From sequence record MZ956761.1: 64,000 nucleotides of DNA; one strand, 5' to 3'. Position 1 is the stretch's first letter. Each line of letters begins with the position of its first letter. A program made the position numbers and the translations under genes. The stretch is from a phage. The notes beneath the pieces were generated by a model. That model was given only the letters and a program-made list of their open reading frames with translations, had not been told where the DNA came from and searched no databases. Shown here piece by piece: positions 10,089 through 23,174 of this stretch.

Positions 10089-10161
10089 TGGGAATTAGCC
10101 AAGTTGGTAAGGCATAGCACTTTGACTGCTAGATGCAAAGGTTCGAGTCCTTTATTCCCAG
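10089..10161 (+). tRNA. tRNA-Gln (UUG)
   Basis: Acceptor tgggaat/attccca, T-loop ttcgagt, anticodon loop cTTTGAc. Confidence 0.85.
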
Positions 10162-10162
10162 C

Positions 10163-10249
10163 GCGAGAATGGTCAAATTGGTAAAGGCACAGCACTTAAA
10201 ATGCTGCGGAATGATTTCCTTGTGGGTTCGAGTCCCACTTCTCGCACCA
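10163..10249 (+). tRNA. tRNA-Leu (UAA), type II, CCA encoded
   Basis: Acceptor gcgagaa/ttctcgc, anticodon loop cTTAAAa, long variable arm. Confidence 0.85.
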
Positions 10250-10254
10250 AATTT

Positions 10255-10328
<74 letters not shown>

Positions 10329-10338
10329 ATTTAATCTA

Positions 10339-10412
10339 CTCCGTGTAGCTCAGTTTGGTAGAGCGCCTGATTTGGGATCAGGAGGTCCAAGGTTCAAATC
10401 CTTGTATGGAGA
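10339..10412 (+). tRNA. tRNA-Pro (UGG)
   Basis: Acceptor ctccgtg/tatggag (two G-U), anticodon loop tTTGGGa. Confidence 0.8.
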
Positions 10413-10414
10413 CT

Positions 10415-10504
10415 GGAGGCGTGGCAGAGTGGTTTAATGCACCGGTCTTGAAAACCGGCAGTCGCTCCGGCGACTCATAGGTTCAAATCCTATCGCCTCC
10501 GCCA
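10415..10504 (+). tRNA. tRNA-Ser (UGA), type II, CCA encoded
   Basis: Acceptor ggaggcg/cgcctcc, anticodon loop cTTGAAa, long variable arm. Confidence 0.85.
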
Positions 10505-10509
10505 GTTTT

Positions 10510-10585
10510 GCTGATTTAGCTCAGTAGGTAGAGCAACTCACTTGTAATGAGAAGGTCGGCGGTTCGATTCCGTCAATCAGCACCA
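10510..10585 (+). tRNA. tRNA-Thr (UGU), CCA encoded
   Basis: Acceptor gctgatt/aatcagc, anticodon loop cTTGTAa. Confidence 0.85.
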
Positions 10586-10586
10586 A

Positions 10587-10661
10587 GGCCCTGTAGCTGG
10601 AAGGTTCAAGCAAGCGACTCATAATCGCCAGATGGTGGTTCAATTCCACCCAGGGCCACCA
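10587..10661 (+). tRNA. tRNA with CAU anticodon (Ile by analogy with T4; Met not excluded)
   Basis: Acceptor ggccctg/cagggcc, anticodon loop cTCATAa. Confidence 0.8.
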
Positions 10662-10674
10662 AATTAAGAATTAA

Positions 10675-10761
10675 GGGGAGTTATCCCGTAGAGGTAGCGG
10701 TGTGGACTGTAAATCCATTGTCATTGCGACTCGGGTGGTTCGACTCCATCACTCCCCACCA
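10675..10761 (+). tRNA. tRNA-Tyr (GUA), type II, CCA encoded
   Basis: Acceptor ggggagt/actcccc, anticodon loop cTGTAAa, variable arm resembling bacterial tRNA-Tyr. Confidence 0.75.
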
Positions 10762-10765
10762 ATTT

Positions 10766-10840
10766 GGATGTGTAGCTCAATGGCAGAGCGATCGCCTGTT
10801 AAGCGATTGGTTATAGGTTCGAATCCTATCACGTCCGCCA
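10766..10840 (+). tRNA. tRNA-Asn (GUU), CCA encoded
   Basis: Acceptor ggatgtg/cacgtcc, anticodon stem atcgc/gcgat, loop cTGTTAa. Confidence 0.8.
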
Positions 10841-10954
10841 AATTTGTGACAACTGTCACATTAATATCTACTTGACGCGATTATAGGGGTTGAACTGATC
10901 ACTCTTCTCTTAATTTCGTGTGAAGACATCTTGATTGTTGGAGTAGGTATTAAT
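10841..10954 (+). ncRNA. Inter-tRNA spacer, possible small stable RNA
   Basis: 114-nt segment between tRNA-Asn and tRNA-His with hairpin tgtgac-aact-gtcaca at 10845-10860; tRNA processing would release it. Confidence 0.25.
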
Positions 10955-11030
10955 GTGGCCGTAGTTCAGTTGGTAGAACTCGAGATTGTGATTCTCGTAG
11001 TCATGGGTTCGACTCCCATCGGTCACCCCA
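10955..11030 (+). tRNA. tRNA-His (GUG), CCA encoded
   Basis: Acceptor gtggccg/cggtcac, anticodon stem cgaga/tctcg, loop tTGTGAt. Confidence 0.8.
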
Positions 11031-11034
11031 ATTA

Positions 11035-11110
11035 CGGGGCATAGCTCAGAAGGAAGAGCAAGGACCTTCTAAGTCCTAGGTCGTAGGTTCGATCCCTACT
11101 GCCTCGACCA
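11035..11110 (+). tRNA. tRNA-Arg (UCU), CCA encoded
   Basis: Acceptor cggggca/tgcctcg, anticodon loop cTTCTAa. Confidence 0.85.
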
Positions 11111-18817: not shown

Positions 18818-19180
18818 ATGAAAGCATATCAAATTCTTGAAGGCACACATAAAGGTACTATTTATTTTGAAGATGGTATTCAGGCACGAATTATTGTCTC
18901 TAAAACCTTTAAAGAGGACTCTTTTGTAGACCCAGAAATTTTCTATGGTTTGCACGCCCGTGAAATTGAAATTGAAACACAACCTACAGTTAAAATTGAA
19001 GGTGGTCAGCACCTGAACGTTAACGTTCTGCGTCGTGAAACTTTGGAAGATGCAGTTAAGCATCCGGAAAAATATCCGCAGCTGACCATCCGTGTATCCG
19101 GTTATGCAGTTCGCTTTAACTCTCTGACTCCGGAACAGCAGCGCGACGTTATCGCTCGTACCTTTACTGAGAGTCTGTAA
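18818..19180 (+). CDS. Autonomous glycyl radical cofactor (GrcA/YfiD-like)
   Basis: 120 aa; C-terminal [61 protein letters not shown] is the glycyl-radical motif region of enterobacterial GrcA. Confidence 0.8.
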
Positions 19181-19401
19181 TGGCAAAGATAATTATTGAA
19201 GGTTCTAAAGATGTGCTAAATGCTTTCGCAGAATGGTTTAGTAATTCAGGCGAACAGCAATTTAATGAAGCGTGGAATATGGGTGATATTAGTGGAATTT
19301 ATCCTACGACAGAAATTTCTGTTCAGGGATATGGCATTCATGAACCTATTCGTTTAGTTGAATATGATTTATGTACTGGTGAGGAAGTCAAATATGATTG
19401 A
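19180..19401 (+). CDS. Hypothetical protein
   Basis: 73 aa ORF, ATG overlapping upstream stop. Confidence 0.45.
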   Translation: MAKIIIEGSKDVLNAFAEWFSNSGEQQFNEAWNMGDISGIYPTTEISVQGYGIHEPIRLVEYDLCTGEEVKYD

Positions 19402-20466: not shown

Positions 20467-21012
20467 ATGAGAAAAGCACTACTCGCTGGTCTATTGGCCA
20501 TTTCAATGATGGCACATAGCTCCGAGCATACTTTCAGTAATGTCCAACTCGATAACATGCGTTACGCGTATCAATTCGGGGAACAATTTTCTAAGGATGG
20601 AAAATATAAAACACACAAAAATATCCACAAGAGCGGATTAGGTCATATAATGGCAGCCATTTTATGGCAAGAAAGCTCTGGCGGAGTTAATTTAAAATCT
20701 AAACCAAAGCATCACGCCTACGGAATGTTCCAAAATTATTTGCCTACTATGCGAGCAAGAGTTAAGGAACTTGGTTATAATATGACCGATGCTGAAATAA
20801 AAAGAATGTTGAATAAACGATCCAATTCAGCTTCCTGGGCGTACATTGAACTTTATTATTGGTTAAATATACATAAGGGCGATATAAGAAAGGCGATATC
20901 CTCTTATAATTCGGGATGGAATGTTAAAGCAGGTTCTAAATATGCTTCTGAAGTCCTAGAAAAGGCTAATTACCTTAAAAATAATAAACTTTTGGAAATA
21001 GTAAATGACTAA
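20467..21012 (+). CDS. Secreted lytic transglycosylase-like protein
   Basis: 181 aa; N-terminal signal peptide; ILWQESSGG resembles SLT catalytic E-S motif. Confidence 0.5.
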   Translation: MRKALLAGLLAISMMAHSSEHTFSNVQLDNMRYAYQFGEQFSKDGKYKTHKNIHKSGLGHIMAAILWQESSGGVNLKSKPKHHAYGMFQNYLPTMRARVKELGYNMTDAEIKRMLNKRSNSASWAYIELYYWLNIHKGDIRKAISSYNSGWNVKAGSKYASEVLEKANYLKNNKLLEIVND

Positions 21013-21352
21013 AATTTTGGTTTTATGTATAGGATTAATTTCATTTTCTGCTTCTGCGTCAGCAGATACATCATATACTGAAATTAGAGAATATGTAAAC
21101 CGCACTGCGGCAGATTATTGTGGGAAAAATAAAGCATGCCAAGCTGAATTTGCACAGAAATTAATATATGCATATAAAGACGGAGAAAGAGATAAATCAA
21201 GCAGATACAAAAACGATACATTATTAAAACGATATGCTAAAAAGTGGAATACATTAGAATGTTCAGTTGCGGAGGAGAAAGATAAAGCCGCTTGTCATTC
21301 AATGGTTGACCGTTTGGTAGATTCTTATAATCGAGGATTGAGTACTAGATGA
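21005..21352 (+). CDS. Secreted Cys-containing small protein
   Basis: 115 aa; signal peptide MTKILVLCIGLISFSASASA; four Cys. Confidence 0.5.
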   Translation: MTKILVLCIGLISFSASASADTSYTEIREYVNRTAADYCGKNKACQAEFAQKLIYAYKDGERDKSSRYKNDTLLKRYAKKWNTLECSVAEEKDKAACHSMVDRLVDSYNRGLSTR

Positions 21353-21816
21353 TTGTAAAATATATCAAGGGCGATATTGTCGCCCTTTTCGCTGAAGGTA
21401 AAAATATTGCGCATGGATGCAATTGTTTTCATACTATGGGTTCAGGCGTAGCGGGTCAATTAACCAAAGCTTTCCCTAAAATTTTGGAAGCTGATAAATT
21501 ACAGACTGAATGGGGTGATGTGACTAAACTTGGTTCTTATTCAGTCTATGAAAAATACTTTAGGACTCATAAAGCGTATTGCTTCAACCTTTATACTCAA
21601 TTTCAGCCAGGGCCAAATTTTGAGTATTCCGCTTTAATGAATTGTATGTTAGAATTAAATGAGTTTGGTGAAAATAAACTAATTAAACCTACAATCTATA
21701 TGCCTAGGATTGGTGCAGGCATAGGTAAAGGGAACTGGGATATTATTGAGGGGATTTTAGATGCATATTCCTCTAAATTAGAAATTGTGATTGTTGATTG
21801 GGAACCATTATTATGA
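21349..21816 (+). CDS. Macro-domain protein (ADP-ribose binding/hydrolase fold)
   Basis: 155 aa; motifs GDI...NIAHGCNCFHTMGSGVAGQL and IGAGIGKGNWDIIEGIL match macro-domain signatures. Confidence 0.6.
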   Translation: MIVKYIKGDIVALFAEGKNIAHGCNCFHTMGSGVAGQLTKAFPKILEADKLQTEWGDVTKLGSYSVYEKYFRTHKAYCFNLYTQFQPGPNFEYSALMNCMLELNEFGENKLIKPTIYMPRIGAGIGKGNWDIIEGILDAYSSKLEIVIVDWEPLL

Positions 21817-22025
21817 ATATACATTATCCACATCCGTTTGATCCTAAAAACAAAGCAGTAATTATTCGTCAATGGGAACGCATTTGCCGTACTAAATGTC
21901 CAATTAATAGTCAACATGATGTAAATAAAGACTATATTGGAACATTCGTTGAATATACCTTTATTGATAAGAAAGGTCGTAAACAGCATGTAGAAGAATA
22001 TTGCTTAAAGGTTACATGGTTATGA
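21813..22025 (+). CDS. Hypothetical protein
   Basis: 70 aa from ATG 21813 (ATGA overlap). Confidence 0.4.
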   Translation: MNIHYPHPFDPKNKAVIIRQWERICRTKCPINSQHDVNKDYIGTFVEYTFIDKKGRKQHVEEYCLKVTWL

Positions 22026-22228
22026 GCCAAACTAGTATTCTTAAAAATGCCCATTGTGAAAAGTGTAAATGGCCTGTTGTTTTTGCTTTATGTAATGATG
22101 AAATGGCTTGTGATTTCGATTATTGGTGCTATTGTTCTAATAAAGGATGCATCAATCATAAAGGTGAAGGATTTTATTCGGGATTTTATCCTTATCCTGA
22201 TTTCGTTAAAGAAGGTAAACCAAAATGA
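22022..22228 (+). CDS. Cys-rich small protein (putative zinc-binding)
   Basis: 68 aa; CEKCKW...C...C...CYC...C pattern. Confidence 0.4.
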   Translation: MSQTSILKNAHCEKCKWPVVFALCNDEMACDFDYWCYCSNKGCINHKGEGFYSGFYPYPDFVKEGKPK

Positions 22229-22401
22229 ATGATGATTTAAAATATCAATTATTACGTGAACTTGATGTTTTGATTGAACTTTCTGCACAAAAAGGATTTA
22301 TAATTGGATCGGGTCAAAAAGACCCTAACGGTCATTCAATCGTAGCGGTTATGAATCAGAAACGAGTCATTTTAAAACTTTTGGGGATTGACATACTGTG
22401 A
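22225..22401 (+). CDS. Small hypothetical protein (58 aa)
   Basis: ATGA overlap with upstream gene; not in track. Confidence 0.35.
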   Translation: MNDDLKYQLLRELDVLIELSAQKGFIIGSGQKDPNGHSIVAVMNQKRVILKLLGIDIL

Positions 22402-22583
22402 GTCTAAGCAAAGAACAAAAAGATAAATTGTTTGAGCTTATCCATGAACTTCTAGATGAGCATACAGAAGCAAACACCTTTTATGATGAATACGGCCCGC
22501 TATCTCCCGAACAGCAGGAAGAATTTGCTGATCGGTTTGATAAGAAAGAAAATGAATTAATAGCTTATGTGAATACGCTTTAA
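22398..22583 (+). CDS. Small acidic hypothetical protein
   Basis: 61 aa, GTG start overlapping upstream stop. Confidence 0.4.
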   Translation: MSLSKEQKDKLFELIHELLDEHTEANTFYDEYGPLSPEQQEEFADRFDKKENELIAYVNTL

Positions 22584-22592
22584 GAAGGTGAT

Positions 22593-23174
22593 ATGGCGAG
22601 TTTAATTTTTACTTATGCAGCAATGAATGCTGGAAAATCTGCTTCTCTTTTGACTGCTGCACATAATTATAAAGAACGTGGAATGAGTGTATTAGTTCTT
22701 AAGCCTGCTATTGATACTCGCGATTCTGTCTGTGAAGTCGTTTCTCGCATTGGAATTAAGCAGGAAGCGAATATTATTACAGATGATATGGATATTTTCG
22801 AGTTCTATAAATGGGCTGAAGCACAAAAAGATATTCATTGCGTATTTGTAGATGAAGCTCAGTTTTTAAAAACTGAACAGGTGCATCAATTGAGCCGAAT
22901 TGTTGATACATATAATGTTCCTGTTATGGCTTATGGGCTAAGGACTGATTTCGCTGGAAAATTATTTGAAGGTTCTAAAGAACTTTTAGCGATTGCAGAT
23001 AAACTTATTGAACTAAAGGCAGTTTGTCATTGTGGTAAAAAAGCGATTATGACAGCTCGATTAATGGAAGATGGAACACCAGTTAAAGAAGGTAATCAAA
23101 TCTGTATTGGTGATGAAATTTATGTTTCTTTGTGTAGAAAACATTGGAATGAATTAACTAAAAAGCTCGGTTAG
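22593..23174 (+). CDS. tk: Thymidine kinase
   Basis: 193 aa; P-loop AAMNAGKSASLL, C-terminal CHCGKKA...C zinc motif. Confidence 0.9.
   Translation: MASLIFTYAAMNAGKSASLLTAAHNYKERGMSVLVLKPAIDTRDSVCEVVSRIGIKQEANIITDDMDIFEFYKWAEAQKDIHCVFVDEAQFLKTEQVHQLSRIVDTYNVPVMAYGLRTDFAGKLFEGSKELLAIADKLIELKAVCHCGKKAIMTARLMEDGTPVKEGNQICIGDEIYVSLCRKHWNELTKKLG

What the first reader, a model, noticed from the sequence alone, without database searches (positions are those of the whole stretch)
21349..21816. Macro-domain protein in the early region upstream of tk
Motifs GDIVALF...NIAHGCNCFHTMGSGVAGQL and PRIGAGIGKGNWDIIEGIL match the two conserved macro-domain segments. Macro domains bind or hydrolyse ADP-ribose derivatives. 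In a phage this could reverse host ADP-ribosylation-based defence or modulate the phage's own ADP-ribosyltransferases; the role is inference.
Basis: partly seen in the sequence, partly recalled or inferred. Interest (0 to 1): 0.6.

Follow-up and report, generated by a model that had tools for sequence, protein, structure and literature searches.

The report
T4 tk.4/AdfM anti-DarTG2 macrodomain gene
The ORF is a real macrodomain protein, but it is the already-annotated T4 gene tk.4 (154/155 residues identical), which a 2025 preprint showed protects T4 against the bacterial DNA-ADP-ribosylating defence DarTG2, so the finding is correct but not new.

Summary

What this analysis adds:
- Tk.4 is not a DarG-family member. 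It scores 30 bits against a 250-bit cutoff and has no DarT-binding domain.
- The catalytic Lys of DarG and TARG1 is an invariant Gln (118/118 homologs), as in SCO6735.
- It shows no pairwise similarity to the biochemically characterised PhiKZ 'AdfM', which is DarG-type.
- Hydrolysis of ADP-ribosyl-thymidine by Tk.4 is still inferred, not shown.

Side observation: a conserved, codon-biased hairpin lies inside the first codons of tk.4.

The parts
21349..21816 (+). tk.4 / adfM coding sequence, 155 aa, single macrodomain
21412..21447 (+). Loop 1, residues 22-33 (H22-G-C-N25-C...M30-G31-S-G33). N25 is the conserved macrodomain Asn, equivalent to SCO6735 N27 and PhiKZ AdfM N23.
   Evidence: In 118 homologs N25 is kept in 117, H22 in 113 and G33 in 118. 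Column map. The N27S and N23A mutants lose activity in the comparator enzymes.
21586..21600 (+). N80-L-Y-T-Q84 motif. Q84 occupies the position of the catalytic Lys of DarG (K80) and TARG1 (K84), and of Gln85 in SCO6735.
   Evidence: Q84 is Gln in 118/118 homologs, Y82 in 118/118 and N80 in 117/118. Both DarGs and TARG1 have K in that column; SCO6735 and BT1257 have Q. The equivalence of Q85, K80 and K84 is stated in PMC9411070.
21703..21738 (+). Gly-rich phosphate-binding loop, residues 119-130 (P-R-I-G-A-G-I-G-K-G-N-W). G124 is equivalent to SCO6735 G128. G126 sits where TARG1 has the catalytic D125.
   Evidence: P119, I121, G122 and G124 are invariant in 118/118 homologs. Alignments.
21367..21387 (.). 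9-bp GC-rich hairpin inside codons 7-13 of tk.4 (AAGGGCGAT-ATT-GTCGCCCTT), followed on the + strand by TTTCGCT. Its function is unknown; it may be an attenuator or terminator, or an mRNA element.
   Evidence: Flagged by the terminator scan. It is built from rare codons GGC, GTC and GCC (joint usage 5.6e-4), and only 7 of 5000 synonymous recodings fold as stably. It is retained with compensatory pairs in Winklervirus, Krischvirus and Vequintavirus. In the pair count, 0/500 shuffles reach the observed covariation score.
21005..21352 (+). vs (valyl-tRNA synthetase modifier), the upstream gene. Its TGA stop overlaps the tk.4 ATG (ATGA).
   Evidence: It is 100% identical to T4 Vs.
21813..22025 (+). 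tk.3 homolog, the downstream gene. Its ATG overlaps the tk.4 TGA stop.
   Evidence: It is 96% identical to T4 tk.3.
22593..23174 (+). tk (thymidine kinase), the landmark gene named in the finding
   Evidence: It is 99.5% identical to T4 Tk.

Best explanation
This is the ortholog of T4 tk.4, recently renamed adfM (anti-DarT factor, macrodomain). It is a small stand-alone macrodomain of the ALC1-like class (TARG1, DarG, Poa1p, SCO6735), expressed from the regB-vs.1-vs-tk.4-...-tk gene string. Its role is counter-defence. When a host DarTG2 toxin-antitoxin system releases DarT2, which ADP-ribosylates thymidines in single-stranded DNA at TNTC motifs and blocks phage replication, Tk.4 most likely binds the ADP-ribose and hydrolyses the thymidine-ribose bond, restoring the DNA. 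Shown: the fold, the orthology, and (for T4, in the literature) the genetic requirement on DarTG2 hosts. Inferred: the enzymatic step. The active site is not DarG-like. The catalytic Lys is replaced by an invariant Gln (Q84), held next to an invariant Asn (N25) and a Gly-rich loop (G122, G124). This is the arrangement of Streptomyces SCO6735, which cleaves ADP-ribosyl-thymidine without a lysine. There, Gln positions the distal ribose, and a water-initiated mechanism has been proposed from simulations and mutagenesis.
Against: No biochemical assay of Tk.4 is reported; the preprint says enzymatic removal only 'seems likely'. The genetic result is in a preprint and rests on one DarTG2 system. Tk.4 lacks the two lysines that position DNA in SCO6735 (K34 and K89 correspond to S32 and G88), so DNA handling must differ. 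Catalytically dead SCO6735, DarG and TARG1 still inhibit DarT in vitro, so a binding contribution cannot be excluded. Sequence similarity to every characterised enzyme is low (19-29% identity).
Confidence: 0.75

Rival explanations
1. Tk.4 neutralises DarTG2 mainly without catalysis, by binding and inhibiting DarT2 or by masking ADP-ribosylated sites, as the direct inhibitors AdfA and AdfB do.
For: Catalytically dead SCO6735 (Q85A), DarG (K80A) and TARG1 (K84A) all inhibit DarT activity in vitro, and SCO6735 does so most strongly. AdfA and AdfB are described as direct DarT inhibitors. No Tk.4 enzymology exists.
Against: The residues that are invariant in 118 homologs are exactly the catalytic and ADP-ribose-binding ones. 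Tk.4 lacks the C-terminal DarT-binding domain of DarG: it matches only positions 2-147 of the 338-position model. An enzyme suits a small early protein facing many DNA lesions better than a stoichiometric blocker does (inference).
Confidence: 0.12
2. Tk.4 is a metabolite-processing 'phosphatase' like yeast Poa1p (ADP-ribose-1''-phosphate phosphatase) or an O-acetyl-ADP-ribose deacetylase, as many database records label it. On this reading the DarTG2 phenotype is secondary.
Against: The labels derive from the old domain name A1pp, not from an assay. The residue equivalent to Poa1p F152 is Gly or Ala in the Tk.4 family. T29 is only 73/118 conserved. The only phenotype reported for the gene is specific to DarTG2.
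Confidence: 0.06
3. Tk.4 is an eraser for the phage's own ADP-ribosyltransferases (Alt, ModA, ModB), tuning modification of host proteins or RNA.
For: T4-like phages encode three ARTs (own knowledge; Alt is discussed). SCO6735 also removes ADPr from an automodified PARP1 mutant, so members of this class can act on protein.
Against: The T4 ARTs modify arginine (own knowledge), and ALC1-like macrodomains are known for acidic-residue and thymidine linkages, not arginine (own knowledge; for the class). tk.4 was dispensable on K-12 without DarTG2. Tk.4 homologs occur in FelixO1-like, rV5-like and Pseudomonas phages; whether those phages carry Alt/Mod genes was not checked.
Confidence: 0.04

Closest known systems
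T4 Tk.4 = AdfM (NP_049723; bioRxiv 10.1101/2025.11.20.689424)
   Same: 154/155 identical, with the same length and the same position between vs and tk.3. This is the same gene in a sister phage.
   Different: One substitution, A139T, in the C-terminal helix and outside all conserved columns.
Streptomyces coelicolor SCO6735 and Bacteroides BT1257 (PDB 5e3b, 2fg1/2afc)
   Different: Only 26-29% identity. Tk.4 lacks the K34 and K89 DNA-positioning lysines and the longer loop that follows the Gln. It has 'NLYTQ' rather than 'NMIGQ', and it is phage-borne.
DarG antitoxin macrodomain (DarTG2; PDB 5m31, 5m3i, 7omu; NCBIfam NF048014)
   Different: Tk.4 scores 30.4 bits against a cutoff of 250. It has no C-terminal DarT-binding domain and no adjacent darT. 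The catalytic Lys80 is replaced by Gln, and DarG has Asn where Tk.4 has His22.
PhiKZ gp104, also named 'AdfM' (Cell Rep 2026, PMC13309987)
   Same: A stand-alone phage macrodomain that counters DarTG2, with the conserved Asn (N23 there, N25 here).
   Different: A different subfamily. gp104 is a clear DarG-type protein (133-138 bits on the DarG models; E=9e-25 to Mtb DarG; 'FPTK' lysine motif). BLASTP between Tk.4 and gp104 gives E=4.1. gp104 has in vitro activity data and Tk.4 has none.
Human TARG1/OARD1 (PDB 4j5r)
   Same: Top Foldseek hit. T83-Q84 of Tk.4 aligns with T83-K84 of TARG1, and the two share the MPRIGxG loop.
   Different: The TARG1 catalytic dyad K84/D125 corresponds to Q84/G126 in Tk.4.
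T4 AdfN (gene 30.3, NADAR)
   Same: An orphan antitoxin-like ADP-ribosylglycohydrolase of T-even phages that counters a DarTG system.
   Different: AdfN has a NADAR fold, acts on guanine-linked ADPr made by DarT1, and has no effect on DarTG2. By T4 map position it lies outside this window (own knowledge).

Membership tests
Macro domain (Pfam PF01661) | Profile score above Pfam's gathering cutoff | tested here: met
   27.7 bits against a cutoff of 22, E=2.8e-6, covering profile positions 2-113 of 118.
Macro domain (Pfam PF01661) | Three-layer alpha/beta/alpha macro fold | tested here: met
Macro domain (Pfam PF01661) | Conserved Asn in loop 1 and the Gly-rich phosphate-binding loop | tested here: met
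   N25 is kept in 117/118 homologs; G122 and G124 in 118/118.
Macro domain (Pfam PF01661) | Binds ADP-ribose | not testable with these tools
   Needs ITC, a crystal structure or a hydrolysis assay.
ALC1-like macrodomain class (TARG1, DarG, Poa1p, SCO6735) | Nearest structural and sequence neighbours belong to this class rather than to the MacroD, viral or PARG classes | tested here: met
T4 Tk.4/AdfM orthologous group | Orthology to T4 Tk.4 by sequence and synteny | tested here: met
   154/155 identity. The order regB-vs.1-vs-tk.4-tk.3...tk is the same in both.
T4 Tk.4/AdfM orthologous group | Required for phage growth on a DarTG2 host | not testable with these tools
   Reported for T4 by transposon sequencing and a clean knockout. 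Not tested for this phage.
T4 Tk.4/AdfM orthologous group | Hydrolyses thymidine-linked ADP-ribose on ssDNA | not testable with these tools
   No assay was found in the literature for Tk.4. It is inferred from SCO6735 and PhiKZ gp104.
DarG antitoxin (NCBIfam NF048014; PADLOC DarG) | Score above the curated equivalog cutoff | tested here: not met
   30.4 bits against a cutoff of 250; 36.1 bits on PADLOC DarG, where PhiKZ gp104 scores 132.9.
DarG antitoxin (NCBIfam NF048014; PADLOC DarG) | C-terminal DarT-binding domain | tested here: not met
   The protein is 155 aa and matches only model positions 2-147 of 338.
DarG antitoxin (NCBIfam NF048014; PADLOC DarG) | Catalytic lysine (Taq DarG K80) in the 'FPTK' motif | tested here: not met
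   That column is Gln in Tk.4 and in 118/118 homologs, and Lys in both DarG structures.
DarG antitoxin (NCBIfam NF048014; PADLOC DarG) | Encoded next to a darT toxin gene | tested here: not met
   The neighbours are vs and tk.3. The two MAG-labelled homologs sit in T4-like phage contigs with no DarT gene.
SCO6735/BT1257-type lysine-less dT-ADPr hydrolases | Gln at the catalytic position, buttressed by the loop-1 Asn, plus the loop-2 Gly | tested here: met
   Q84, N25 and G124 correspond to Q85, N27 and G128. The mutational importance of these residues is described.
SCO6735/BT1257-type lysine-less dT-ADPr hydrolases | DNA-positioning lysines K34 and K89 | tested here: not met
   The equivalent residues are S32 and G88 (SCO6735 numbering checked).
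SCO6735/BT1257-type lysine-less dT-ADPr hydrolases | Close sequence kinship (same subfamily) | tested here: inconclusive
   BT1257 is the best PDB hit, but at 26-29% identity. Profile scores for BT1257 (68.6), TARG1 (58.3), SCO6735 (58.1), Poa1p (54.3) and Mtb DarG (53.1) lie close together.
Poa1p-type ADP-ribose-1''-phosphate phosphatase | Residues probed in the Poa1p structures: H23, S30, F152 | tested here: inconclusive
   H22 matches H23. T29 sits at the S30 position but is conserved in only 73/118 homologs. The F152 position is Gly or Ala. Activity cannot be tested here.
PhiKZ-type AdfM (gp104) | Detectable pairwise homology and the DarG-type 'FPTK' motif | tested here: not met
   BLASTP E=4.1. 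The two are related only at profile level (33.9 bits). gp104 aligns to Mtb DarG at E=9e-25.

The most novel reading that the evidence does not exclude
Tk.4-type AdfM is a phage-borne, lysine-less clade of ALC1-like macrodomains, present in about 2,750 of 50,697 phage records across T4-like, rV5-like, FelixO1-like and Pseudomonas/Vibrio phages. On this reading it was recruited against DarT2 independently of the DarG-derived PhiKZ AdfM and works by the SCO6735-type water-initiated, Gln-dependent chemistry. So phages have reached anti-DarT2 erasers at least twice, with different catalytic solutions. In addition, the conserved hairpin in its first codons would regulate expression of tk.4 and the downstream tk genes.
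Probability: 0.4. Interest if true: 0.4.

Novelty: already known. Interest (0 to 1): 0.2.

Why it matters
As a discovery it matters little. The gene, its domain and now its counter-defence role are on record for T4, and this phage carries the same protein.

Three refinements may be useful.
- The literature now uses one name, AdfM, for two unrelated-subfamily proteins. One is DarG-type with a catalytic Lys (PhiKZ gp104). The other is SCO6735-type with Gln (T4 Tk.4).
- The T4-type protein still lacks any enzymology. The residues to mutate are clear: Q84, N25 and G124.
- The family occurs in roughly 5% of sequenced phage genomes. Many records label it 'phosphatase', a name inherited from the old A1pp domain name rather than from an assay.

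Tried and rejected
1. A C-terminal fragment query of the PDB, meant to print the alignments to SCO6735 and DarG, covered only the Gly loop. I solved this by querying with BT1257 and PhiKZ gp104 to recover the reference sequences.

I re-ran it without that row.

3. I checked whether 'bacterial' homologs (Bacilli and Culicoidibacterales MAGs) sit next to a DarT gene, which would have pointed to a Gln-type DarG ancestor. Both are T4-like phage contigs binned into MAGs, with Rnl1, Pnk, dCMP deaminase and T4 spanin as neighbours and no DarT. Only two contexts were examined.

4. I looked for a promoter to support 'early region'. Promoter-like sites are no more frequent than in shuffled sequence (17 against 18.3), so I make no claim.

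5. MAFFT and hmmalign placed the PhiKZ gp104 'PTK' one or two columns off the Gln column. I relied instead on gp104's direct alignment to DarG.

6. I considered whether the hairpin loop carries a DarT2 TNTC motif. It is present in some lineages but not in Serratia X20, so I rejected it as uninformative (by eye).

7. A literature search on the Poa1p mechanism found nothing usable. LeRoux 2022 is not held in the library.

Full report
**The observation**

The window has an ATG-to-TGA ORF at exactly 21349..21816 on the + strand. It encodes 155 residues that contain both quoted motifs. The macrodomain assignment is not a chance resemblance:
- Pfam PF01661 scores 27.7 bits against a gathering score of 22, E=2.8e-6.
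- PHROG 335 matches at E=3e-65.
- phmmer against PDB sequences finds BT1257 (1.3e-9), yeast Poa1p, DarG, SCO6735 and TARG1.
- A profile of 51 family members improves these hits to between 5e-18 and 6e-11.
- An AlphaFold2 model built on 50 homologs has mean pLDDT 96 and pTM 0.91, with the alternating strand/helix order of a macro fold.
- Foldseek against the PDB returns TARG1, Poa1p, BT1257 and DarG at probability 1.00.

**What the gene is**

The 2.8 kb around the ORF is 100% identical to Escherichia phage ADUt and 97-99% identical to hundreds of Tequatrovirus genomes. In those records the ORF is annotated as tk.4, 'macro domain protein', 'phosphatase' or 'Poa1p-like'.

Against T4 itself the protein is 154/155 identical; the only change is A139T. 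The gene order regB, vs.1, vs, tk.4, tk.3 ... tk is the same. The vs stop codon overlaps the tk.4 start (ATGA), and the tk.4 stop overlaps the tk.3 start, so the genes form one tightly packed co-oriented string. The A1pp/macro domain in tk.4 orthologs was already reported in 2006 (PMC1524935).

**What is known about its function**

A bioRxiv preprint of November 2025 (10.1101/2025.11.20.689424) challenged a T4 transposon library with a DarTG2-expressing host. tk.4 was the single significant hit. A clean knockout made T4 sensitive to DarTG2, and the authors renamed the gene adfM.

This fits an earlier report that T4 lacking both adfA and adfN remains DarTG2-resistant, which had suggested a further factor (PMC11825919).

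The preprint infers enzymatic removal of ADP-ribose from DNA ('seems likely'). It reports no assay and does not discuss catalytic residues. I found no other paper on T4 Tk.4 and DarTG2.

The deletion test it proposed on DarTG hosts has been done for a protein that differs by one residue.

**Mechanism and active site**

I recovered reference sequences from the PDB alignments and aligned them with 118 full-length family members.
- The catalytic lysine of TARG1 (K84) and DarG (K80, in 'NFPTK') falls on Tk.4 Q84. This residue is Gln in 118/118 homologs, inside an invariant N-x-Y-T-Q motif.
- TARG1's second catalytic residue, D125, falls on G126.
- SCO6735 and its close homolog BT1257 also have Gln at the catalytic position.

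Per PMC9411070, SCO6735 Gln85 is structurally equivalent to DarG K80 and TARG1 K84, and Q85A or Q85E abolishes activity. N27S and G128E strongly reduce it. The enzyme cleaves thymidine-linked ADPr-DNA with high turnover and protects Streptomyces from DarT. The authors propose a water-initiated mechanism in which Gln positions the distal ribose.

Tk.4 conserves the equivalents of these residues: H22, N25, Q84 and G124. It lacks the equivalents of the DNA-positioning lysines K34 and K89, which correspond to S32 and G88.

I therefore think Tk.4 most likely erases DarT2 lesions by SCO6735-like, lysine-independent chemistry. That step remains an inference.

**Family membership**

Tk.4 is not a DarG-family member:
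- It scores 30.4 bits on NCBIfam antitoxin_DarG (cutoff 250) and 36 bits on PADLOC DarG.
- It matches only the macrodomain part of those models and has no DarT-binding domain.
- It has no darT neighbour.

A second phage protein, PhiKZ gp104, was independently named AdfM (Cell Rep 2026, PMC13309987). It removes DarT2-made ADPr from a TNTC oligo in vitro, and N23A weakens that activity.
- gp104 is a true DarG-type macrodomain: 133-138 bits on the same DarG models, E=9e-25 to Mtb DarG, and an 'FPTK' lysine motif.
- It shows no pairwise similarity to Tk.4 (BLASTP E=4.1). The two are related only at profile level.
- That paper states that no macrodomain Adf had been reported, so the two groups appear to have been unaware of each other.

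The shared name covers two different subfamilies with different catalytic residues.

**Distribution**

tblastn finds Tk.4-like sequences in 2,752 of 50,697 phage records. These include many Straboviridae genera, Vequintavirus, Felixounavirus, and Pseudomonas, Vibrio and Acinetobacter phages. Two homologs labelled as bacterial MAG proteins lie on T4-like phage contigs, with Rnl1, Pnk, dCMP deaminase and T4 spanin as neighbours and no DarT. On this limited evidence the family looks essentially phage-borne.

**Rivals**

- Non-catalytic inhibition of DarT2. This is possible because dead SCO6735, DarG and TARG1 mutants still inhibit DarT in vitro. The invariance of the catalytic residues argues against it as the main mode.
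- A Poa1p-like phosphatase or deacetylase role. It rests on labels inherited from the A1pp domain name. The Poa1p residue set is only partly kept: H22 yes, T29 variable, and Gly or Ala at the F152 position.
- An eraser of the phage's own Alt/ModA/ModB marks. This is unsupported. Those enzymes modify arginine (own knowledge), and tk.4 was dispensable on K-12 without DarTG2.

**Side observation: a hairpin inside tk.4**

Codons 7-13 of tk.4 (21367-21387) form a 9-bp GC-rich hairpin.
- It is followed on the + strand by a short T run, and the terminator scan flagged it on the - strand.
- It uses GGC, GTC and GCC, each only 7-10% of its amino acid's codons in this genome (joint usage 5.6e-4). Only 7 of 5000 synonymous recodings of the same peptide fold as stably.
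- It is kept in phages whose Tk.4 is only about 39-58% identical. Compensatory pairs appear in Serratia X20, Krischvirus and the Vequintavirus slur16. It is absent from Moonvirus, Marfavirus, Jiaodavirus, Acj9, FelixO1 and Slopekvirus.
- In the pair count, 0/500 shuffles reach the observed covariation score, and the named register beats every slid register.

Its function is unknown. An attenuator or terminator, or an mRNA stability element, are guesses.

**Verdict**

Interest is low. The remaining open points are the untested enzymology of the Gln-type active site, the name collision with PhiKZ AdfM, and the embedded hairpin.

Noticed in passing
window 21367-21387 (inside tk.4 codons 7-13): A conserved 9-bp GC-rich hairpin built from rare C-ending codons: only 7 of 5000 synonymous recodings fold as well. 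It shows compensatory changes in Winklervirus, Krischvirus and Vequintavirus homologs and is absent in several other genera. It looks terminator-like on both strands. Its function is unknown.
   Followed up: partly
literature: bioRxiv 10.1101/2025.11.20.689424 and PMC13309987: Two groups independently named different proteins 'AdfM': T4 Tk.4 (Gln-type, remote from DarG) and PhiKZ gp104 (DarG-type with a catalytic Lys). BLASTP between them gives E=4.1. The 2026 paper states that no macrodomain Adf had been reported.
   Followed up: yes
window 22016-22401: The tk.4-tk interval differs from T4. Two small ORFs have no match in the T4 region: 22016..22228 (70 aa, Cys-rich, CxxC-containing) and 22225..22401 (58 aa). 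The ORF at 22398..22583 is only 54% identical to T4 tk.2, and T4 tk.1 has no counterpart. This is a typical hyperplastic stretch of T-even genomes.
   Followed up: partly
window 10089-11110: A cluster of 11 tRNA genes (Gln, Leu, Gly, Pro, Ser, Thr, Met/Ile-CAU, Tyr, Asn, His, Arg). T4 has 8 (own knowledge), so this phage carries extra Tyr, Asn and His tRNAs.
   Followed up: no
L003 (GCA_051648945.1) and L004 (GCA_051660865.1): Tk.4 homologs labelled as proteins of bacterial MAGs (Bacilli, Culicoidibacterales) sit on 40-44 kb contigs full of T4-like phage genes (Rnl1, Pnk, dCMP deaminase, T4 spanin). These are phage contigs binned into MAGs.
   Followed up: partly
L001 (phage ADUt record) and L005 (phage JQD51 record): Likely annotation errors in public records. 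ADUt calls the 73-aa ORF at window 19180..19401 'tail tube protein' and its neighbour 'putative exonuclease'. In JQD51 the product names look shifted by one gene: 'lytic transglycosylase' sits on vs and 'phosphatase' on tk.3, while tk.4 is 'hypothetical'.
   Followed up: no
window 18818-19180: A 120-aa ORF ending in the RVSGYAVRF glycyl-radical motif, annotated 'autonomous glycyl radical cofactor' in ADUt. The 2006 paper's table lists vs.6 with a Gly_radical domain. It is a GrcA/YfiD-like spare part for a glycyl-radical enzyme.
   Followed up: no
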